In this document: positions 26,523 to 62,073 of the stretch, in pieces
Layout: every line of letters begins with the position of its first letter
Position numbering within the stretch: position 1 is the stretch's first letter
Source: an uncultured Acidimicrobiia bacterium
GTDB taxonomy: Bacteria > Actinomycetota > Acidimicrobiia > Acidimicrobiales > AC-14
Reading direction: 5' to 3'
Assembly (NCBI GenBank): GCA_963836205.1
Contig: CAWIIV010000015.1
Span: forward strand, 64,001-128,000
Length of the DNA stretch: 64,000 nucleotides
Notes under the pieces: generated by a model
Told to the model about the DNA's origin: nothing
The model's database searches: none
The model's input: only the letters and a program-made list of their open reading frames with translations
Position numbers and translations under genes: made by a program

Positions 26523-26584
26523 CCGGCCCGACGTGCCCGGCGCCGCCACCTCCCGGCGCCGGGCCCTCGCGGTCCTCCCACTCT

Positions 26585-29068
26585 CTAGCGCAGGATCTGG
26601 CGGATGGTGCGGGCGTAGCTCTGGGCCAGGGCCCGGGACTCGGTGGCACTCGACCCCTCGGCCCACACGTGGGTCACCGGCTCGTCGGCGTCGGGCAGGA
26701 CCAGGGCCCACGCCCCGTCGCCCTCCATCACCTTCACCCCGTCGACCAGCACCACGTCGCGGTCCTTGGCCTCCTCCACCACCCGCCGCATGACCAGGCC
26801 CTTCTGCTCCCAGGGGGTGACCACGCTCTCGTGGGCGATGTGGACGCGAGGCAGGCCGGCCACCACCTTCGACAGCCGTAGCCCCGACCGGCCCAGCAGC
26901 TCGAGCAGCTTGACCAGGGCGGCGGTGGCGTCGAAGGCGGGCAGGAAGTCGGGGAAGATGAACCCACCGTCCTGGCTGGCGGCGAGGGCGATCCCTCCCG
27001 ACTTGGCCGCGTCCATGAGTGAGGCGGTGGACACCTTGGTCCACACCACCTCCGCCCCCGCGTCGGTGGCGATGCGCTCGGCGGCCGACGTCACCGACAC
27101 CGGCAGCGCGATCCGGGCGTTCTCGGTGGCGACCAGGGTGACCATGGCCAGCAGGGCCTGCTCGCTCGTGAGGATGTGGCCTTCGTCGTCGACCAGGATG
27201 ATGCGCTCGCCGTCGGGGTCGAGCACCGCCCCCAGGTGGGCGCCCGAGCTGCGCACCAGGTCGGCCACCCGTCCCGCGTGGACCTTGGCGTCGAAGGAGG
27301 CCGCCCCCGCGGTCGACGTATAGGGGTTCACCGACAACACGTCGGCCCCCAGCTTGGAGAACACGTTGGCCATCACCAGCGACGTGGGCCCGAAGGCGTA
27401 GTCCATCACCAGCTGGTAGCCGGAGGCTCGGATGACGTCGCCGTCGACATTCTCCATGAGCGCGGCGCTGTAGTACTCCAGCGCCCGGGGCGGGTAGCCG
27501 ATGTCGCCGATGTCGGCCGCGAACGCCCGCCGGAAATCCTGGCGGAAGAAGATGCGCTCGATCTTCCGTTGGGCGCTCTCGTCGATGTCGGTGCCGTCGG
27601 CGGTGAAGAAGCGGATGGTGACGGACTGGGGGTCACCCGGCGTCAGTCGCACCGTGATCCCGCCCTGCGACCGCTGGATGCGCACCTGGAACCGGCTGAC
27701 CGGGACGGTGGCCATCTCCAGGTCGTCGACGTTGATGCCGGCCGAGTTGAGCCCCGCCATAACCGCCCGCTTCAGGGCCCGGGCGGCCCGGCTCGAGTCG
27801 CGGGACGTGGTGACCGTCGACCCCTTCTTCATGGTGGTGGCGTAGGCCATGGCCACCCGGCAGGCCAGCTCGGGAGTGACGTCGACGTTGGCCAGCCCGC
27901 TCACCCCGTGCTGGCCGAACAGGCTGCGGGTGCCCCTCGACTCCCACACGATCGACGAGTTGATGATGGCGTTGGGCTCCACCGTCTTGAACGGGTAGAC
28001 CTTCACCCCCGAGTTGATGACCGCGTGCTCGCCCACGAAGCAGTTGTCGCCCAGGACCACGCCCTCCTCGCACCGGGCGTGGGCCCGCAGGTCGCACGAG
28101 CGGCCCACAACCGACCCCCGCAGGCGGACTCCCTGGCTGAGGTAGGCGTTGTCGTGCACCACCGCCCGTTCGAGGAACGTGTCGGCCCGCACCATCACGT
28201 TGGCGCCGAGGACGGTGTACTCCCGGATGTTGGCCCCCGCCTCCACCCGGCAGTAGTCGCCGATGATGGCCGGCCCCTCGATCGACGCCCCCGGGTCGAC
28301 CTCGGCCCCCTCGCCCAGCCACACCCCCTTGGCCATGCGGAACCCGGGGATCTCGATGGCCACCTTGCCCGCGAGGACGTCCTGGTGGGCCTTGTGGTAC
28401 GCCTCCAGCGTGCCCACGTCCTCCCAGTAGCCCTCGGCCACGAACCCGTAGAGGGGCTTGCCGTCCTCCAGGAGGCGTGGGAACACGTCGGACGAGAAGT
28501 CCACCGACTTGCCCTCGGGGATGTAGTCGAACACCTCCGGCTCGAGGACGTAGATACCGGTGTTGACCGTGTCGCTGAACACCTGGCCCCAGCCCGGCTT
28601 CTCGAGGAAGCGCTCGATCGACCCGTCCTCCCGGGTGATGACGATGCCGAACTCGAGCGGGTTCTCCATCGACTTGAGGGCGATGGTGGCCATCGCGCCC
28701 TTCTCCTTGTGGAACGCGACCAGGGCCGACAGGTCGATGTCGGTGAGGACGTCGCCCGAGATGACCAGGAACGTGTCGGTGAGCTCGGCCCGGGCGTTGC
28801 GCACCGACCCGGCGGTGCCCAGGGGCGTCTCCTCGGTGGCGTAGACCATGCGGACGTCGAACTCGGAGCCGTCGCCGAAGTAGGTGCGGATGGTCTGGGG
28901 GAGGAAGGCGAGGGTGACGACCACGTCGTCGAAGCCGTGCTCCTTGAGCAGGTCGACGACGTGCTCCATCATCGGCCGGTTGACCAGCGGCATGAGCGGC
29001 TTGGGCTGGTTCGACGTGAGCGGCCGCAGGCGCGTGCCCTCGCCGCCCGCCATGATGACGGCCTTCAC
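26585..29068 (-). CDS. Bifunctional mannose-1-phosphate guanylyltransferase / phosphomannomutase-like protein
   Basis: KAVIMAGGEGTRLRPLT..PKP, ETPLGTAGSV, hexapeptide region, PGM/PMM-like C-terminal half. Confidence 0.9.
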   Translation of the reverse strand: MKAVIMAGGEGTRLRPLTSNQPKPLMPLVNRPMMEHVVDLLKEHGFDDVVVTLAFLPQTIRTYFGDGSEFDVRMVYATEETPLGTAGSVRNARAELTDTFLVISGDVLTDIDLSALVAFHKEKGAMATIALKSMENPLEFGIVITREDGSIERFLEKPGWGQVFSDTVNTGIYVLEPEVFDYIPEGKSVDFSSDVFPRLLEDGKPLYGFVAEGYWEDVGTLEAYHKAHQDVLAGKVAIEIPGFRMAKGVWLGEGAEVDPGASIEGPAIIGDYCRVEAGANIREYTVLGANVMVRADTFLERAVVHDNAYLSQGVRLRGSVVGRSCDLRAHARCEEGVVLGDNCFVGEHAVINSGVKVYPFKTVEPNAIINSSIVWESRGTRSLFGQHGVSGLANVDVTPELACRVAMAYATTMKKGSTVTTSRDSSRAARALKRAVMAGLNSAGINVDDLEMATVPVSRFQVRIQRSQGGITVRLTPGDPQSVTIRFFTADGTDIDESAQRKIERIFFRQDFRRAFAADIGDIGYPPRALEYYSAALMENVDGDVIRASGYQLVMDYAFGPTSLVMANVFSKLGADVLSVNPYTSTAGAASFDAKVHAGRVADLVRSSGAHLGAVLDPDGERIILVDDEGHILTSEQALLAMVTLVATENARIALPVSVTSAAERIATDAGAEVVWTKVSTASLMDAAKSGGIALAASQDGGFIFPDFLPAFDATAALVKLLELLGRSGLRLSKVVAGLPRVHIAHESVVTPWEQKGLVMRRVVEEAKDRDVVLVDGVKVMEGDGAWALVLPDADEPVTHVWAEGSSATESRALAQSYARTIRQILR

Positions 29069-37086: not shown

Positions 37087-38232
37087 ATGGCGACTCCCGA
37101 GCAGGCGACGGCGGCGTTGGCGGCGGTGAGCGAGGCCGTGCTCGGGGTGGCGGGCGACCTGTCGGTCGCGACCGTCCTCCGACGGTTGGCGGAGGCGGCC
37201 CAGCAGCTGGTGGGCGCCCGCTACGCGGCCATCGGCGTCCCCGACGACGATGGCGACGGCTTCGCCCAGTTCATCCACGTGGGGATGAGCGACGAGCTGG
37301 TCGACGCGATCGGCCCCCTCCCCAGGACCCACGGGCTCCTCGGGTCGATGCTGGTCGACCCCATCCCCTACCGCACCGACGACGTGCGGGCCGATCCCCG
37401 GTTCCGTTGGTGGCCGGCGGCCCACCCCCGGATGCGGTCGTTCCTGGGCGTGCCCATCGTCTTCAAGGGCGACGTGGTGGGGGCGTTCTACCTGGCCGAC
37501 AAGGAGGCGGGCGAGCGGTTCACCGACGACGACGAGTCGCTCATCGGCCTGCTGGCGGCCCACGCCGCCATCGCCATCGAGAACGCCCGCCTCTACGAGC
37601 AGAGCCGGGAGCTGAGCATCGTCGAGGAGCGCAACCGCATCGCCCTGGAGCTGCACGACGCCACCGCCCAGACCCTGTTCGGCATCCGCCTGGCGGCCGA
37701 CACCGCCCTCGGCCTGGTGGCCACCGACCCCGACCGGGCCTCGGCCGAGCTGGCCACGGTGCGCGACCTGGCCGGCACCGCCGCCACCGAGCTGCGCTCG
37801 CTGATCTTCGCCCTGCGGCCGGCCGCCGTCGCCGCCGACGGGCTGATCGCCGCCCTCGGCAAGCACGTCGAGCTCCTCGGCCGCACCCACCGGCTGCACA
37901 TGGCCGTGCACGCCGACGGGGCCGGGCTGGCCGACCTGCCGGACGACGTCGAGGCCGACCTCTACCGGGTGGCCCAGGAGGCGCTCAACAACGTTGTCCG
38001 CCACGCGTCGGCCACTTCGGTGACCGTGACTCTCTCGTCGGCCGACGGCACGGTCACCCTCACCGTGGCCGACGACGGGGCCGGCTTCGACCCCGCCGCC
38101 CGCAGCATCCGCGCCCACCGCCTGGGCCTGACGTCGATGGCGGCCCGCACCGCCCGCCACGGCGGCACCACCCGGATCGAGTCCGCCGCCGGGAAGGGCA
38201 CCACCGTCACCGCCGAGGTCCCGCGGCCGTGA
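37087..38232 (+). CDS. GAF domain sensor histidine kinase (HisKA_3)
   Basis: GAF domain (ARYAAIGV, HPRMRSFLGVPI), ERNRIALELHD, QEALNNVVRHA, DDGAGF. Confidence 0.92.
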   Translation: MATPEQATAALAAVSEAVLGVAGDLSVATVLRRLAEAAQQLVGARYAAIGVPDDDGDGFAQFIHVGMSDELVDAIGPLPRTHGLLGSMLVDPIPYRTDDVRADPRFRWWPAAHPRMRSFLGVPIVFKGDVVGAFYLADKEAGERFTDDDESLIGLLAAHAAIAIENARLYEQSRELSIVEERNRIALELHDATAQTLFGIRLAADTALGLVATDPDRASAELATVRDLAGTAATELRSLIFALRPAAVAADGLIAALGKHVELLGRTHRLHMAVHADGAGLADLPDDVEADLYRVAQEALNNVVRHASATSVTVTLSSADGTVTLTVADDGAGFDPAARSIRAHRLGLTSMAARTARHGGTTRIESAAGKGTTVTAEVPRP

Positions 38233-38898
38233 TCCGGGTGCTCGTGGTCGACGACCACCCCATCGTCCGCCAGGGCCTGCGCTCGTTTCTCTCGAGCCGG
38301 GACGGGATCGAGGTGGTGGGCGACGCCGGCGACGGCGAGGCGGCGGTGGCGACGGTGGGCGAGCTGCGGCCCGACGTGGTGCTCATGGACCTGGTCATGC
38401 CCGGGATGGGCGGGCTGGCCGCCATCCGGGCCGTCTCCGACCTCGGCCTGGGCACTCGGATCCTGGTCCTGACCAGCTTCTCATCGGAGGACCAGGTCAT
38501 CCCCGCCATCCAGGCCGGGGCCGCCGGGTACCTCCTCAAGGACGCCTCTCCGGAGGAGGTGGAGGGGGCGGTGCGGGCGGTCCACGCGGGCGAGGGCCGG
38601 CTCGACCCGTCCCTCGCCGCGGTGGTGATGGCGGCCGCGGCCGGCGGCCACGAGCCGGGCCGACGACGACGGCCTGGCCCGGCTCACCCCCCGGGAGACC
38701 GAAGTCCTCCGCCTCCTGGGCGAGGGGCTGTCCAACCGGGCCCTGGCCGAGCGCCTGTTCGTGTCGGAGAAGACGGTGAAGACCCACGTCAGCAGCGTCC
38801 TGGCCAAGCTCGGACTCACCGATCGCACCCAGGCCGCCCTCTTCGCCGTCCACCACCGCCTGGTCGCCGACCTTCCTGGGCCGGAAAAGGGGCGCTGA
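38229..38898 (+). CDS. NarL/LuxR family response regulator (1-bp frameshift near 38658)
   Basis: REC domain VLVVDDH...LMDLVMP...GYLLK, then in another frame LTPRETEVL...SEKTVKTHVSSVLAKL; the shift is at the GGG run 38657-38659. Confidence 0.88.
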
Positions 38899-38981
38899 TA
38901 CACCTCCGACAGGGTCCCCCACTCGCTTGAGCAGGGGTCCCAGCGTGGAGTCGGCAACCCCGACCTCACAGGAGGATTCCG

Positions 38982-40385
38982 ATGGCCCACGTTGGAGGAC
39001 AGCTTCAAGCGCAGTTCATGGCCCGTATCCGCGGGCGTGACCCCGAGCGTTGCCTGGTGGTGCCCGTCGACGTCGGCAAGTCGTCGGCGATGGCGCTCGT
39101 CGCCGACCACTACGGCGAGATGGTCGTGGCGCCCTTCGAGTTCGTCCTCACCGAGACCGGGTTCGCGGTGCTGTCGGGAGCGATCGCCCGGGCCGAGGCG
39201 ACGCGCTCGGCCGAGGTCGTGCGGGTCGGGGTGGAATCGGCCGGGCACTACCACCGCACGCTCGTGGCCCGCCTGCGGGCCGGCGGCCACGAGGTCGTCG
39301 AGCTCAACCCGGCGGCGGTGAAGGAGGCCCGGTCCCAGCAGCTGCTGCGCCGCCTCAAGAGCGACGCCCGGGACCTGGGGGCGATGGCCGAGCTGATGAT
39401 CCGTGGCGCCGGCCGCCCCCCGGCGGTGCGCACCGACGCCCTGGCCACCCAGGGCGCATGGGTCGCCCACCGCCGGCGCAAGGTGTCGGCCCGGGTGGCG
39501 CTGGCCAACCAGGTCATCGGCCAGCTCGACCTGGTCTTCCCCGGCCTCGACGGCTGCTTCTCCGACCTGCTCGGCGCCCGCGCCGGGCGGGTGATCGTCA
39601 CCCACATCTGCGACCCCGACCGCGTCCGGCGCCAGGGGATCGAGGGCCTGCGTCGCTTCGTGGCCCGACGAGGCGTGACGCTGTCGGGGCCCAAGGCCAC
39701 CCAGGTTGTCGAGGCGGCCCGGGTGGCGCTGCGCCTGCCAGCCGCAGAGCGGGCCGTCCTGGGCAGGGTCTTAGCCGCTGACCTGGCTCTTCTCGCCAGC
39801 CTCGAGGCCGGGATCGTCGCCGCCGAGGTGTCCCTGGCCGAGGTCCTGGCGGACACCCCGGCGCGGATACTGACCTCCCTGCCCGGGGTGGCGGTGGTGC
39901 GGGCCTCGAACTACGGCGCCGGCATCGGCGACCCGGCCCGGTTCCCGAACGCGGCCGCCGCCTACCGGGCGGCGGGCCTGGTCCCGACGCTGTACGAGTC
40001 GGCCGGGAGATCCCGGTCCCGCCAGCACATCAGCCGGGAAGGCTCCGTCGAGCTGCGCCAGGCGATCATCGAGCTCGGCCGGGGCCTGGCCCAGCACGAG
40101 GCCGACTTCCGCCACTACCGCCGCCGGATCCTCGACTCGGGCAAGCCGGCCTCGGTGGCGGCCGTCGCCGTCGGCCATCGGGCCCACCGCCTGGCCTTCG
40201 CCATGCTGCGCGACCAGTTGCCCTACGACCCGGCCCGATGGACCGAGTCGGTGGCGGCGGGCATGACCGCCATGGCGAAGACCCGACGGGCCCACCAGAA
40301 CGACGTGACGTGCCCGCCGCCGGCCACCAGCGTGCCCGAAGGGGGTGAGGCCGACAACACCACCGCCAGACGCTCTCGGGGCTGA
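38982..40385 (+). CDS. IS110 family transposase (DEDD recombinase)
   Basis: VPVDVGK (D), GVES (E), KSDARD (DD), LTSLPGV, LVPTLYESAG (catalytic Ser), ISREG; RBS AGGAGG. Confidence 0.93.
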   Translation: MAHVGGQLQAQFMARIRGRDPERCLVVPVDVGKSSAMALVADHYGEMVVAPFEFVLTETGFAVLSGAIARAEATRSAEVVRVGVESAGHYHRTLVARLRAGGHEVVELNPAAVKEARSQQLLRRLKSDARDLGAMAELMIRGAGRPPAVRTDALATQGAWVAHRRRKVSARVALANQVIGQLDLVFPGLDGCFSDLLGARAGRVIVTHICDPDRVRRQGIEGLRRFVARRGVTLSGPKATQVVEAARVALRLPAAERAVLGRVLAADLALLASLEAGIVAAEVSLAEVLADTPARILTSLPGVAVVRASNYGAGIGDPARFPNAAAAYRAAGLVPTLYESAGRSRSRQHISREGSVELRQAIIELGRGLAQHEADFRHYRRRILDSGKPASVAAVAVGHRAHRLAFAMLRDQLPYDPARWTESVAAGMTAMAKTRRAHQNDVTCPPPATSVPEGGEADNTTARRSRG

Positions 40386-40397
40386 AACGCCCCGAGA

Positions 40398-40568
40398 TCG
40401 GCGGCGGGGGGCCCGGACCGATGTCGAGTGCGCTACGACGTCCTTCGGGAACGTCGCTTCTAGCATGACGCCGGGTCCCTCCCACTGAAGCGAGCGCGAA
40501 CGTGGTTGCCTGACCCGCCCTCGGGCGAGGTCGCGTATGTCAGCGTGTGCCGCGAGGGAGGCCGCCGA
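40398..40568 (+). ncRNA. Putative IS110 bridge/seek RNA (target-binding and donor-binding loops)
   Basis: Closing stem TCGGCGGC/GCCGCCGA; two hairpins with internal loops matching the target (gcgCTaga) and donor (ggttgCTga); C(UUCG)G tetraloop. Confidence 0.75.
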
Positions 40569-40699
40569 ACCGGAAATCACCCCGAACCGGATCGACGCGC
40601 CCCTCGACGGACGCCTACTTCACCGCGGCTCCACAAGACTGTTGACAAACCAGACGGTTGCTAGACGCACCTTTTCATGCCCAAGACCGTCGTCGTGCC

Positions 40700-41047
40700 T
40701 CAGCTCATGGACCGGATGCGCAGGCCGCGAACTGGCTCGAAGTGCTTCGTGTTGCGGGTGGCAAGGCCAAGCCGGTGTTCCAGGGCGGTGGCTGCGATCA
40801 ACGCGTCGGGCAGGCGCAGGCCGGTCTCCCGCCGGATCCGCCCCGCCCGTTCGGCAACGGCGCAATCGACGGGAATCTCCCGGAACGGGGCGAGAACCCG
40901 GCCCGCCAGGTCGGTACCAGTGGCCCCGGCGAAGAGCTCGGCACGCGTGACGACCGAGTAGTGGAGTCGGTGCTGACCCGCCTTCAGCTCGACCGCACCA
41001 CGCAGATGATCGATGAAGATGTCCGTGTCGACGAGAATGTCAGCCAC
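40700..41047 (-). CDS. vapC: VapC family PIN domain toxin
   Basis: ILVDTDIFID, SVVTRAEL, LPDALIAATA, TRNTKHF. Confidence 0.9.
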   Translation of the reverse strand: MADILVDTDIFIDHLRGAVELKAGQHRLHYSVVTRAELFAGATGTDLAGRVLAPFREIPVDCAVAERAGRIRRETGLRLPDALIAATALEHRLGLATRNTKHFEPVRGLRIRSMS

Positions 41048-41258
41048 GGACCCACTCGTCGCGGCTGGGCGCGGCGGCCTCAGGATCGGCTCCGAAGGTG
41101 GCGGCCAAGGCCGGACCCGGATCGCGGGCGGTTCCGAGGTAGACGTCGAGCGCCCGCCGGACGACTTCGGCCAGGCTCACCCCCTCGGCGCGGGCGATCT
41201 CGTCGATCAGCCGACGTTGTTCAGTGGTGAGATACACCTGCGTCCGCGTGGCCGACAT
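41040..41258 (-). CDS. CopG/RHH antitoxin (VapB-like)
   Basis: RTQVYLT...LDEIAR-like helix, GVSLAEVVRRALD; overlaps vapC. Confidence 0.87.
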   Translation of the reverse strand: MSATRTQVYLTTEQRRLIDEIARAEGVSLAEVVRRALDVYLGTARDPGPALAATFGADPEAAAPSRDEWVRG

Positions 41259-60672: not shown

Positions 60673-62073
60673 CTAGGCGCGTCCAAGGTCGATCTCTGTC
60701 CTGACGGTAAAAGGTTCCGATCGTTCTCCTATGTGTCCATCCATGTGCAAGTACACGTTTCCGGTGTGGCCGGGCCCGCCGCTTGGCTCCACCCAATCGA
60801 TGACCGCCTTGGAGAGACGGAACGATGCCACCTCGCCGTAGCGAATCTCACAGTCACCCTCGGCGATGACTTGAGCGTCACCCCGCGGCGGTTCACGCAA
60901 GTCTTCTAGCGCATGTGCCATAGCAAAGAGAACTGCGAGAACATGCGGGTCTTCTGTTGCGTAAGCATTGAGAGTCGAATCGCTAAGTGGACCGATCGGG
61001 AACTCGGCGTTTTCGGCGACTGGCCTTAGGACCTCCAACGCTGCTTGGTCTATAAGTTTGATGATGTTGTCGACCTTCAGCGGTGGTTCAGATAGACGAA
61101 TCCGTTCCGCTGCATCCCCTAACGATGCCACAGCAATGACAGATAGCTCGGCTTCAGTTATGTCGGCGAGGAGTTCGACCGCAAGCCCCTTCGACGGATC
61201 CCTATTTGCGAAGAAGGCCTTGTCCGACGTTACGAATAGTACTTCGTAGTCAGTTGCGAGTTCGAGCACGGCCAACCAGATCAGTGTGTCCTTGTACTGT
61301 TGGTTGTTCTCACCGTTGGGGGGCACCTTGTCGAGCACCCGCCGAAGCGCACTCTGCGCCTGCTTGAACGTGAATGGAACGCGCACCAGGAAGGGTTCCA
61401 GTTCTGTTAGTCGCAACGGAGCGGCGCCGACAAAATCACCCGTCGGTTGGGAGAACAGGTGCGGGGGCTGAGCGGACGACGTAGGCGGTCGAGCCCCGAC
61501 AGTTATGTCGGCGAGGAGTTCGACCGCAAGCCCCTTCGACGGATCCCTATTTGCGAAGAAGGCCTTGTCCGACGTTACGAATAGTACTTCGTAGTCAGTT
61601 GCGAGTTCGAGCACGGCCAACCAGATCAGTGTGTCCTTGTACTGTTGGTTGTTCTCACCGTTGGGGGGCACCTTGTCGAGCACCCGCCGAAGCGCACTCT
61701 GCGCCTGCTTGAACGTGAATGGAACGCGCACCAGGAAGGGTTCCAGTTCTGTTAGTCGCAACGGAGCGGCGCCGACAAAATCACCGTCGGTTGGGAGAAC
61801 AGGTGCGGGGGCTGAGCCCAAGAGACGACGTAGGCGGTCGAGCCCCGACAGAACCCCTTCGCGCGCCTTCCGACCCTCGCTCACGGCGTGAAGCTTGAGT
61901 TCCTCCTCGACGACGTAGGGAAGGCCGAGGACTCCACCCTGTTGCCGTAGCGAGTAGAGGACCGCGGCGGCCGTCGCCGATCGAAGCATGAGATGGGAAA
62001 GCCATTGGTTGGTGTCCAAGACGAGGCACAGTCGCTTGACCCCTACATCATCCGTCGGAACGGTTTCCGGCAT
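60673..62073 (-). CDS. PIN domain protein (DUF4935-like) with internal duplication
   Basis: VLDTN, VEEEL, YKDTLIW, FVTSDKAF; about 95 residues repeated verbatim. Confidence 0.78.
   Translation of the reverse strand: MPETVPTDDVGVKRLCLVLDTNQWLSHLMLRSATAAAVLYSLRQQGGVLGLPYVVEEELKLHAVSEGRKAREGVLSGLDRLRRLLGSAPAPVLPTDGDFVGAAPLRLTELEPFLVRVPFTFKQAQSALRRVLDKVPPNGENNQQYKDTLIWLAVLELATDYEVLFVTSDKAFFANRDPSKGLAVELLADITVGARPPTSSAQPPHLFSQPTGDFVGAAPLRLTELEPFLVRVPFTFKQAQSALRRVLDKVPPNGENNQQYKDTLIWLAVLELATDYEVLFVTSDKAFFANRDPSKGLAVELLADITEAELSVIAVASLGDAAERIRLSEPPLKVDNIIKLIDQAALEVLRPVAENAEFPIGPLSDSTLNAYATEDPHVLAVLFAMAHALEDLREPPRGDAQVIAEGDCEIRYGEVASFRLSKAVIDWVEPSGGPGHTGNVYLHMDGHIGERSEPFTVRTEIDLGRA
61155..61848. repeat. 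Near-perfect tandem duplication (345 bp + 349 bp)
   Basis: 61155-61499 vs 61500-61848, identical except for indels near the ends. Confidence 0.9.

What the first reader, a model, noticed from the sequence alone, without database searches (positions are those of the whole stretch)
40398..40568. Bridge-RNA-like ncRNA downstream of the IS110 transposase, with loops matching its own target and donor DNA
Seen in sequence: TCGGCGGC (40398-405) pairs with GCCGCCGA (40561-68) and encloses two hairpins. Hairpin 1 has an outer stem 40408-16/40471-79 and an inner CGACGT-CC(UUCG)GG-A-ACGTCG. Its internal loop carries GAGTGCGCTA (40426-35) and TTCTAGC (40458-64). The reconstructed empty target is AGGGGCG-CT-AGAC: GCGCTA matches its top strand and TCTAGC is the reverse complement of GCTAGA. 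Hairpin 2 has an outer stem CTCCC/GGGAG and an inner GACC-CGCC(CUCG)GGCG-A-GGTC. Its loop carries TGGTTGC (40503-09) and TGTCAGC (40538-44). The reconstructed circle junction is ACGGTTG-CT-GATA: GGTTGC matches, and TGTCAGC pairs with GCTGATA with one G-T wobble. Established: IS110/IS1111 recombinases use a bispecific RNA with a target-binding loop and a donor-binding loop around a 2-nt core (CT in IS621). Inference: this is a complete, potentially reprogrammable RNA-guided recombinase from an actinobacterial lineage. Its RNA lies 3' of the ORF (IS1111-like position), yet no subterminal inverted repeats are evident.
Basis: partly seen in the sequence, partly recalled or inferred. Interest (0 to 1): 0.92.

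Follow-up and report, generated by a model that had tools for sequence, protein, structure and literature searches.

The report
Bridge RNA of an actinobacterial IS110 element
A mobile DNA element present three times in this genome carries, just after its transposase gene, a folded RNA whose loops spell out both the element's own ends and its insertion site. It is a well-supported new example of the RNA-guided "bridge" recombination system first described in 2024.

Summary
Window 38897-40662 is a 1766-bp IS110-family element with three copies in the genome. Two copies are identical and the third differs by one base. All three sit at (G/A)CG-CT-AGA sites.

The stretch 40395-40572, 3' of the 467-aa transposase gene, is a conserved structured RNA. 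A covariance model finds it 3' of 63 related transposase genes. Across 48 distinct sequences 93.9% of cells pair, and 32 of 46 pairs show compensatory changes.

The two strands of the first internal loop co-vary with the left and right insertion flanks (0 of 20000 permutations reach the observed match, for each strand). The second loop tracks the element's ends through six end types, including a clade whose core is TT instead of CT.

The "handshake" positions cross over as in IS621. The right donor guide shows the same 9-to-7 discontiguous pairing.

Within the window alone the evidence is weak: fold z is -1.5, and all four loop matches arise together in 1.2% of shuffles. The comparative data carry the case.

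The layout is mixed. The guide order is IS110/IS621-type, the transposase is long, and there are no subterminal inverted repeats, yet the RNA lies 3' as in IS1111. It is a new member of a known kind. Expression and activity are untested.

The parts
38895..38896 (+). Left copy of the CT core at the target/element junction. The T, together with the element's first two bases GA, forms the TGA stop codon of the upstream LuxR-type regulator ORF.
38897..40662 (+). The whole IS110-family element: 1766 bp when one CT is counted. It has no terminal or subterminal inverted repeats and no target duplication beyond the shared CT.
   Evidence: Three copies in the genome. The C6 copy is identical and the C14 copy differs by one base, which changes R343 to K.
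38897..38981 (+). Left end (LE), 85 nt. The right-donor bases GATAC lie at 38897-38901. TACACC at 38899-38904 is a candidate -10 of a junction promoter. AGGAGG at 38970-75 lies before the ATG.
   Evidence: The promoter role is inferred.
38982..40385 (+). Transposase/recombinase gene, 467 aa. E85, D128, D131 and S340 align with IS621 E60, D102, D105 and S241. D30 in the invariant motif VVPVDVGK is the presumed first D.
40395..40572 (+). Bridge (seek) RNA region as delimited by the covariance model. The helix-closed core is 40398-40568. Helices: 40400-05/40561-66; 40408-16/40471-79; 40422-25/40467-70; 40436-43/40448-56; 40480-83/40556-59; 40490-97/40547-53; 40511-17/40526-33.
   Evidence: The true RNA ends are unknown.
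40426..40435 (+). 5' strand of the target-binding loop: left target guide GAGUGCG, then core CU, then A. It reads like the top strand of the left flank.
   Evidence: It matches the C14 copy's flank GTGCG-CT-A at 8 of 8 positions. Across the family the match is 4.58 of 6 against 2.52 for permuted pairs.
40457..40465 (+). 3' strand of the target-binding loop: right target guide CUUCU, then AG (complement of the core), then CA (handshake bases complementary to donor positions 6-7, TG).
40504..40510 (+). 5' strand of the donor-binding loop: left donor guide GGUUG, then C (core position 1), then C (a mismatch to core position 2, which is T).
   Evidence: It co-varies with the right-end sequence in six end types.
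40535..40545 (+). 3' strand of the donor-binding loop: right donor guide GUAUGUC, then AG (complement of the core), then CG (handshake bases complementary to target positions 6-7, CG).
   Evidence: The 9:7 discontiguous pairing parallels IS621.
40643..40648 (+). TTGACA, a candidate -35 box of a promoter completed only when RE and LE are joined in the excised circle.
   Evidence: TTGAC(N) lies 15-17 nt before the element end in 39 of 40 unique end pairs. Its function is inferred by analogy with IS621 and ISEc21.
40656..40662 (+). Left-donor bases GGTTG at the right end, followed by the right copy of the CT core.

Best explanation
Window 38897-40662 is an intact, recently active IS110-family insertion sequence. 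Its recombinase, a DEDD RuvC-like domain plus a serine-bearing Tnp domain, is guided by a bispecific bridge (seek) RNA encoded in the right end, 3' of the gene.

**How the RNA reads the DNA.**
- The RNA folds into a closing stem that encloses two hairpins, each with a large internal loop.
[quoted passage not shown] - In the second loop the 5' strand (GGUUG-C) pairs with the element's right end. The 3' strand (GUAUGUC-AG) pairs discontiguously with the left end.
- The base just 3' of each core complement pairs with position 7 of the other DNA after strand exchange (the handshake).

**What is shown.** Element limits and copies; target consensus; conserved RNA structure; co-variation of all four guide strands and of the handshake positions.

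**What is inferred by analogy with IS621, ISEc21 and ISEc11.**
- Excision to a circle.
- A promoter rebuilt across the RE-LE junction (-35 TTGACA in RE, TG-N-TACACC in LE).
- Transcription through tnp into the RNA, followed by processing of the RNA out of the 3' UTR.
- Serine-linked strand exchange at CT.
For: **Family membership.** Pfam PF01548 (9e-24) and PF02371 (9.5e-14). NF033542 scores 145.3 bits against a cut-off of 140. The C-terminal domain aligns to the IS621 and ISCro4 transposases at E 6.6e-10 and 2e-9, with catalytic residues aligned.

**Copies and targets.** Three copies sit at GGGGCG-CT-AGAC, GAACG-CT-AGAC and GGTGCG-CT-AGAT.

**The RNA is conserved.** Covariance model R1 gives 71 matches in 93 sources. 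Of these, 63 lie on the + strand 3' of the transposase match. R1 also hits 3' of IS110-family genes on plasmids of Mycolicibacterium chubuense (75.5 bits), Streptomyces sp. (64.4 bits) and Rhodococcus opacus (29.2 bits).

**Structure (48 distinct sequences).**
- 93.9% of cells pair, against 34.6-44.0% when partners are slid.
- 32 of 46 pairs have changes on both sides, against 4-10 when slid.
- 0 of 500 shuffles reach any measure.
- All 7 helices have at least one compensatory pair.

**Target guides.**
- Left guide against 6 flank bases: 4.58 observed against 2.52 permuted, over 43 unique pairs.
- Right guide against 5 flank bases: 3.77 against 2.20, over 48 unique pairs.
- 0 of 20000 permutations reach the observed sum for either strand. 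The same holds with one pair per distinct guide (29 left and 32 right guides).

**Donor guides.** Six end types each match their own loop. In the TT-core clade all four strands switch at core position 1.

**Handshake.** Target and donor differ at position 7 in 10 of 17 unique combinations. In those 10:
- the target-loop base pairs with the donor in 9 and with the target in 0;
- the donor-loop base pairs with the target in 7 and with the donor in 1.

**Promoter element.** A -35-like TTGAC(N) lies 15-17 nt from the element end in 39 of 40 unique end pairs.
Against: - No RNA, RNA-protein or transposition data exist for this element.
- The fold energy is not significantly below shuffles (z -1.53 and -1.21).
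- Inside the window alone, each loop match is individually common by chance.
- The simple consensus scan found 0 promoters and 0 terminators in 38800-40760, so how the RNA's 5' and 3' ends are made is unknown. The junction -10 is weak: TACACC matches TATAAT at 3 of 6 positions.
- Guide-flank matches are imperfect. The window's own copy matches only GCG of the 7 left-guide bases. Six of 43 left pairs match at only 3 of 6 positions, and three of 48 right pairs at only 2 of 5.
- I located element ends in relatives with end motifs written after seeing the sequences. These motifs do not use the target loop, but they are not blind.
- The loci are related, so permutation counts overstate independence.
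- No uninterrupted target site was found in relatives.
- The left donor guide never matches core position 2.
Confidence: 0.9

Rival explanations
1. The conserved structure is a regulatory 3' UTR or small RNA. It might control transposase mRNA stability, termination or translation, as was once thought for small RNAs of IS110 relatives. On this reading it does not guide recombination, and the loop matches are incidental.
For: - The structure is real and sits directly after the stop codon.
- No expression or binding data are available.
- Within the window, single matches are common by chance.
- The Durrant text notes that small RNAs were earlier thought to modulate recombinase expression in ISPpu9 (passage).
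Against: - The loop strands change together with the flanks and with the element ends across the family.
- The handshake positions cross-match the other DNA.
- A purely regulatory RNA gives no reason for any of this.
Confidence: 0.04
2. The loop sequences act at the DNA level. They would be internal copies of end and target sequences bound by the protein, or remnants of nested insertions, and the RNA fold would be irrelevant.
For: The guide strands are, by construction, identical or complementary to DNA at the ends. IS elements do sometimes carry internal end-like sites.
Against: - 32 of 46 helix pairs keep pairing through changes on both sides, including G-U intermediates. That indicates selection on a single-stranded transcript of the + strand.
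- The guides lie exactly in the unpaired loops of that fold.
- The same architecture has been shown experimentally to act as RNA in IS621, ISEc11 and ISEc21.
Confidence: 0.03
3. It is chance: a G+C-rich non-coding tail that happens to fold and happens to contain short matches.
For: Fold z-scores are -1.2 to -1.5. All four matches together arise in 238 of 20000 shuffles.
Against: The region is conserved down to 46% protein identity, with structure and guide co-variation.
Confidence: 0.01

Closest known systems
IS621 bridge RNA (IS110 group, Escherichia coli; Durrant et al. 2024, PMC11208160; Hiraizumi et al. 2024, PMC11208158). I read passages only.
   Same: - One RNA with a target-binding loop followed by a donor-binding loop.
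[quoted passage not shown]
- CT core.
- Handshake bases 3' of the core complements.
- A right donor guide of 9 nt pairing discontiguously with 7 donor bases.
- A -35 box in the RE.
- DEDD and Ser catalytic residues.
   Different: - The RNA here is in the right end, 3' of the gene, not in the left end 5' of it. It therefore cannot be the first thing transcribed from a junction promoter.
- The transposase is 467 aa, against a 328-residue PDB chain for IS621.
- Sequence similarity is limited to the C-terminal domain (E 6.6e-10).
- The left donor guide matches only core position 1.
- There is no Rfam match.
IS1111-family seekRNAs (ISEc11, ISPa11, ISKpn4; Siddiquee et al. 2024, PMC11187229). I read sections 6, 9, 12 and 13.
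   Same: - The long non-coding region and the RNA lie downstream of tnp.
- Short segments match both strands of the target and overlap at the insertion point.
- The RE is long and the LE short.
   Different: - No subterminal inverted repeats.
- The transposase is 467 aa, not 330-350 aa.
- The order of the two target matches is the reverse of IS1111: here the segment complementary to the bottom strand is 5'.
ISEc21 seekRNA (IS110 family; same paper, section 12)
   Same: - No sTIR.
- The bottom-strand match lies 5' of the top-strand match.
- A junction promoter.
- ISEc21 targets a conserved codon block in IS3-family transposase genes. Likewise, the G4 subclade found here inserts in Mutator/IS256-family transposase genes.
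   Different: The non-coding region of ISEc21 is upstream of tnp, and its transposase is 358 aa.
[quoted passage not shown] 1b' of PMC11187229, section 6)
   Same: The paper states that some IS110-type elements have the long non-coding region downstream. That is the layout seen here.
   Different: I could not see the figure or supplements, so I cannot tell whether this clade is that group. The text I read does not describe the RNA of that group.

Membership tests
IS110 family (sensu lato) of RNA-guided DEDD transposases | N-terminal DEDD/RuvC-like domain (PF01548) plus C-terminal Tnp domain (PF02371) | tested here: met
   PF01548 scores 84.5 bits and PF02371 52 bits. NF033542 scores 145.3 bits against a cut-off of 140.
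IS110 family (sensu lato) of RNA-guided DEDD transposases | Catalytic D-E-D-D and the serine of the G--P----S motif | tested here: met
   E85, D128, D131 and S340 align to IS621 chain residues that correspond to E60, D102, D105 and S241. The first D (D30) is assigned only from the invariant motif VVPVDVGK. The residue after the serine is A, not G.
IS110 family (sensu lato) of RNA-guided DEDD transposases | No terminal inverted repeats; site-specific insertion at a short shared core without target duplication | tested here: met
   Three copies share identical limits, CT on both sides and similar targets. No end inverted repeat is present.
IS110 family (sensu lato) of RNA-guided DEDD transposases | Non-coding-end RNA with separate target-binding and donor-binding loops that co-vary with target and donor | tested here: met
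IS110 family (sensu lato) of RNA-guided DEDD transposases | Circular intermediate with a promoter rebuilt at the RE-LE junction; RNA bound by the transposase | not testable with these tools
   Only a conserved -35-like TTGAC(N) near the RE tip (39 of 40 unique end pairs) and a weak -10 in the LE were seen.
IS1111 group | Long non-coding region and RNA downstream of tnp (long RE, short LE) | tested here: met
   The LE is 85 nt and the RE 277 nt, with the RNA at 40395-40572.
IS1111 group | Subterminal inverted repeats of 7-17 bp | tested here: not met
   The longest exact inverted repeat between the first 60 nt and the last 60 nt is 6 nt, at offsets 49 and 26. It is reached by 1009 of 2000 shuffles. 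None appears among the 25 longest inverted repeats of the element. Imperfect repeats were not scored separately.
IS1111 group | Transposase of 330-350 aa related to that of IS1111 over its full length | tested here: not met
   The length is 467 aa; the criterion is. No phylogeny against IS1111 references was made, because no reference sequences were on hand.
IS1111 group | In the seekRNA, the segment complementary to the top strand lies 5' of the one complementary to the bottom strand | tested here: not met
   Here the bottom-strand-pairing segment (40426-34) is 5' of the top-strand-pairing segment (40457-63).
IS110 group (sensu stricto) | sTIR absent or short; bottom-strand match 5' of top-strand match; target loop before donor loop | tested here: met
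IS110 group (sensu stricto) | Long non-coding region and RNA upstream of tnp | tested here: not met
   The RNA is downstream. The literature notes such exceptions.
Any Rfam 15 RNA family | Covariance-model match | tested here: not met
   There were 0 matches at E up to 1 in 38500-41200 on both strands.

The most novel reading that the evidence does not exclude
This may be a distinct third layout of bridge recombination, widespread in Actinomycetota.
- The RNA is IS621-type: target loop first, left guide 5' of right guide, handshake bases, and a 9:7 right donor guide.
- It has been moved into the 3' UTR of a long (467-aa) IS110-type transposase gene that has no subterminal repeats.
- The guide would then be made only by reading through the whole transposase mRNA from the circle-junction promoter and cutting it out. 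That would couple guide supply to excision and to transposase synthesis.
- The left donor guide systematically leaves core position 2 unpaired.

If so, the move of the RNA between the element's ends happened independently of the IS110/IS1111 split.
Probability: 0.4. Interest if true: 0.5.

Novelty: new member of a known kind. Interest (0 to 1): 0.4.

Why it matters
Bridge and seek RNAs are the only known guides that specify both partners of a recombination reaction, and the characterised examples come mostly from Proteobacteria.

**What this family adds.**
- A high-G+C actinobacterial family with dozens of naturally re-targeted guides: 29 distinct left and 32 distinct right target guides, six donor types, and CT and TT cores.
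- This is a ready-made natural 'reprogramming' data set and a source of new orthologues for engineering.

**What it shows about mechanism.**
- The handshake rule and the 9:7 donor pairing seen in the IS621 structure hold in a distant clade.
- The position of the RNA (5' or 3') and the presence of subterminal repeats are separable traits. This bears on how the IS110 and IS1111 groups are defined.

**For genome annotation.**
- It explains a 277-nt 'non-coding tail'.
- It explains why the element lands on rare CTAG-containing sites, here exactly on a stop codon.

Tried and rejected
**Searches that found nothing.**
- Rfam: no match.
- Consensus promoter and terminator scan of 38800-40760: 0 and 0.
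- Subterminal inverted repeats: none beyond chance.
- Empty target site. I searched 41 genomes (the window's own and 40 relatives) with the left flank. Same-genus orthologues of the regulator gene end differently, and the window's right flank has no match in the five loci compared. The empty site therefore remains a reconstruction.
- RNA evidence: no RNA holder was listed.

**Phylogenetic placement.** I did not attempt to place the transposase against ISfinder IS110 and IS1111 references, because no reference sequences were obtainable through the tools. A tblastn of plasmids gave only generic 'IS110 family transposase' names for the close hits.

**Literature.**
- Two searches for actinobacterial bridge RNAs listed one paper each. 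I opened neither, and neither title concerns such an element.
- The Kocuria paper (passages) describes an IS110 element with an upstream region only.
- The Nop5/IS110 preprint had nothing relevant in the terms searched.
- Supplementary tables of Durrant et al. and Siddiquee et al. may already list relatives of this clade. They were closed.

**Readings rejected.**
- A contiguous right-donor pairing with a G-T wobble is less likely than the discontiguous one.
- A left donor guide extended by a bulged C fails in the G4 clade.

**Element B.** This decayed relative lies on contig C6 and hosts copy 2. Only its ends survive, so it gave no clean test.

Full report
**1. The observation.** All strings and coordinates in the finding are present as stated.
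- RNAfold of 40398-40568 gives the closing stem TCGGCGGC/GCCGCCGA and two hairpins, at -89.1 kcal/mol. The z-score against dinucleotide shuffles is only -1.53, and 12 of 200 shuffles fold as well.
- For 40386-40670 the z-score is -1.21.
- In 20000 shuffles of the 171-nt stretch, each core-spanning match to the reconstructed target or junction was reached by 21-85% of shuffles. All four together were reached by 238.
- So the window on its own gives a suggestive pattern, not a compelling one. Rfam has no match.

**2. The element.**
- ORF 38982-40385 (467 aa) carries PF01548 and PF02371. It passes NCBIfam NF033542, 'IS110 family RNA-guided transposase', at 145.3 bits against a cut-off of 140.
- Its C-terminal domain aligns with the IS621 and ISCro4 transposases (E 6.6e-10 and 2e-9). 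S340 sits on IS621 S241, and E85, D128 and D131 sit on E60, D102 and D105.
- The genome holds three full copies and no other PF02371 gene, and three copies of the RNA.
- The copies share exactly 38897-40662 (1766 bp) with CT on each side. The C6 copy is identical. The C14 copy has one change, which turns R343 into K.
- The flanks are aaaaGGGGCG-CT-AGACgc, agagaACG-CT-AGACcc and cGGGTGCG-CT-AGAtct. The third matches the loop string GTGCGCTA at 8 of 8 positions.
- Copy 2 lies inside a decayed relative whose ends are 86-87% identical.
- The 8-mer GCGCTAGA occurs 9 times in the 4.05-Mb assembly, against 220 for its reversed control.

**3. Relatives.**
- A genome scan gave 10 loci, in records titled Acidimicrobiales, Acidimicrobiia, Actinomycetes or Pilimelia MAGs.
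- A metagenome scan with a 5-protein alignment gave 80 loci, at 46-90% identity in the best segment.
- Eight RNA regions aligned well. RNAalifold predicted 56 pairs, 12 of them with compensatory changes.
- I removed the 10 pairs that RNAalifold drew between the guide strands and built model R1 with 46 pairs.
- R1 gave 71 matches at E up to 0.01 in 93 sources, which break down as follows:
  - 6 are weak minus-strand matches;
  - 2 are partial upstream matches (L045 and L046:1-103);
  - 63 lie on the + strand 3' of the transposase match, including one internally deleted (L083) and one cut by a contig end (L030).
- Most sources without a match are fragments that hold only the N-terminal part of the gene. 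I did not examine them one by one.
- With filters off, R1 also hits 3' of annotated IS110-family transposase genes on plasmids of Mycolicibacterium chubuense NBB4 (75.5 bits), Streptomyces sp. NBC_01320 (64.4 bits) and Rhodococcus opacus PD630 (29.2 bits).

**4. Structure.** I took 48 of the 93 sources, leaving out duplicates, fragments, L030 and L083. All 48 matched at E up to 1e-5 and all are distinct.
- 93.9% of 2168 cells form standard pairs, against a shuffled mean of 82.5% and slid controls of 34.6-44.0%.
- 32 of 46 pairs have changes on both sides, against 4-10 in the slid controls.
- 0 of 500 shuffles reach any of the five measures.
- Each of the 7 helices has at least one compensatory pair.
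- The alignment was fitted to the model, which favours the structure. The size of the gap to the slid controls is nevertheless large.

**5. Target guides.**
- I read the four loop strands from fixed alignment columns.
- I located element ends from a TTGAC anchor plus end motifs for six end types. I wrote these motifs after inspecting the sequences, but they do not use the target loop.
- Of 62 rows, 4 had no recognisable right end and 10 no left end in the DNA held. Rows with flanks shorter than 6 nt (left) or 5 nt (right) were dropped.
- This left 43 unique left pairs and 48 unique right pairs.
- With the same +/-1 register freedom for real and permuted pairs:
  - the left guide matches 4.58 of 6 flank bases, against 2.52 permuted;
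  - the right guide matches 3.77 of 5, against 2.20 permuted;
  - 0 of 20000 permutations reach the observed sums.
- The same holds with one pair per distinct guide (29 left and 32 right guides).
- Misses are kept in these counts. They include L026, whose right flank does not fit its guide.

**6. Donor guides and core.** The right-end tip and the 5' strand of the second loop change together:

| End type | Right-end tip | Loop 5' strand |
|---|---|---|
| G1 | GGTTG-CT | GGUUGCC |
| G1b | GGTTG-TT | GGUUGUC |
| G2 | (A/C)(G/A)TTA-CT | GU(C)(G/A)UUACC |
| G3 | CACACGCG-CT | CACACGCGCC |
| G4 | AACAG-CT | AACAGCC |
| G5 | GACTT-CT | GACUUCC |

- The 3' strand follows the left end: CT-GATAC, TT-GATAC, CT-CATAG and CT-GGTAC.
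- In the TT-core clade (L064, L038, L031, L032) all four strands carry the switch at core position 1.
- In every type the left donor guide has C where the donor has T at core position 2.
- The right donor guide reads, as DNA, CTGA-NN-TAC against CT-GA-TAC. The two middle bases vary (CA, CC, CG, CT, TG) while the LE is constant. This fits the 9-to-7 discontiguous pairing reported for IS621. The TAC itself is invariant, so this is consistent with that pairing but not proven.

**7. Handshake.** Among 17 unique combinations, target and donor differ at position 7 in 10.
- In those 10, the base just 3' of the right-target-guide core complement pairs with the donor in 9 and with the target in 0.
- The base just 3' of the right-donor-guide core complement pairs with the target in 7 and with the donor in 1.
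- Position 6 shows a weaker trend: 7 of 11 for the target loop and 4 of 11 for the donor loop.
- This is the pattern described for IS621 handshake guides. The combinations are few and related.

**8. Expression.** This part is inferred.
- TTGAC(N) lies 15-17 nt before the element tip in 39 of 40 unique end pairs. The LE supplies TG-N-TACACC at a 17-nt spacing in the main type, which is a weak -10.
- IS621, ISEc21 and ISEc11 form such junction promoters.
- The RNA lies upstream of this -35 box. It must therefore be transcribed after tnp, or from an unseen internal promoter, and then trimmed.
- No terminator-like site was found.
- The roughly 70 nt between the RNA and the -35 box are poorly conserved.

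**9. Comparison with what is known.**
- Durrant et al. place bridge RNAs in the LE of IS110-group elements and in the RE of IS1111-group elements, which have 7-17-bp subterminal repeats.
- Siddiquee et al. add three points:
  - IS1111 transposases are 330-350 aa;
  - the order of the target matches is reversed between the families;
  - some IS110-type elements have a downstream non-coding region.
- This element has the 3' position. It has no subterminal repeat, a 467-aa protein and the IS110/IS621 order.
- I file it as an IS110-family bridge-RNA element of mixed layout: a new member of a known kind. I cannot say whether it belongs to the already noted '3'-NCR IS110' group, because the figures and supplements were not visible.

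**10. Context.**
- The window copy sits exactly on the stop codon of a LuxR-type response regulator. The reconstructed ...CGC-TAG becomes ...CGC-TGA, using the element's first two bases.
- A PIN-domain gene converges from the right.

Noticed in passing
L067, L068, L069, L070, L071, L072, L073, L075, L082 (G4 end type); also L100 (Streptomyces plasmid): One subclade of this family is inserted in Mutator/IS256-family transposase genes (PF00872). The insertion falls between profile positions 208 and 213, at the conserved ...GEGAKF/Y | W L.VLTE(L/I)KNRG... block, and the guides read that sequence. This is an insertion sequence aimed at another insertion sequence's gene, like ISEc21 and IS3. Pfam was run on L073 and L082 only. 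The other loci were judged from translated flanks. L069's right flank does not translate to this motif. L100 was judged only from its loop strings.
   Followed up: partly
window 38232-38898: The response regulator upstream of the element is split between two reading frames. The receiver domain (PF00072) lies in the frame of 38232. The GerE/LuxR HTH (PF00196) lies in the next frame from about 38629, with a stop at about 38626 in the HTH frame. This is either a frameshift in the linker or an assembly error. Same-genus orthologues end about 10 residues earlier.
   Followed up: partly
window 38893-38898 and 40661-40665: The insertion sits on the regulator's stop codon. The reconstructed empty site reads CGC-TAG. 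The occupied site reads CGC-TGA, with GA supplied by the element, so the ORF keeps a stop at the same codon.
   Followed up: yes
window 26584-26591 and 60905-60912 (minus strand); seven more elsewhere in the genome: Nine unoccupied GCGCTAGA sites exist in the 4.05-Mb assembly, against 220 for the reversed control pattern. CTAG-containing targets are strongly under-represented. I did not check whether the free sites fit the longer guide.
   Followed up: no
L002 (G000:C6:607534-612307), minus strand around the inserted copy: Copy 2 lies inside a decayed relative ('element B'). Its left end is 87% and its right end 86% identical to the element. Its transposase start is frameshifted. Its middle is replaced by unrelated sequence. 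Only the 3' half of the donor hairpin of its RNA is retained. Its own flanks read CCTCGCCG-CT-AGAGAACG.
   Followed up: partly
L048 and L082 right ends; L060 both ends: Some copies carry different 'core' dinucleotides at their two ends: CC at the right end against CT at the left in L048 and L082, and TT at the left against CT at the right in L060. This is what unrepaired or mismatched cores after strand exchange would leave, or it may be sequence variation.
   Followed up: no
window 40700-41047 (minus strand): A PIN-domain (VapC-like) ORF (PF01850, E 1e-13) converges on the right end of the element. Its stop lies 38 nt from the element tip.
   Followed up: partly
L003 (G000:C14 copy), position equivalent to window 40009: The only difference among the three copies is G to A, which changes R343 to K. 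That is three residues after the presumed catalytic S340, at a position invariant in the 5-protein alignment.
   Followed up: partly
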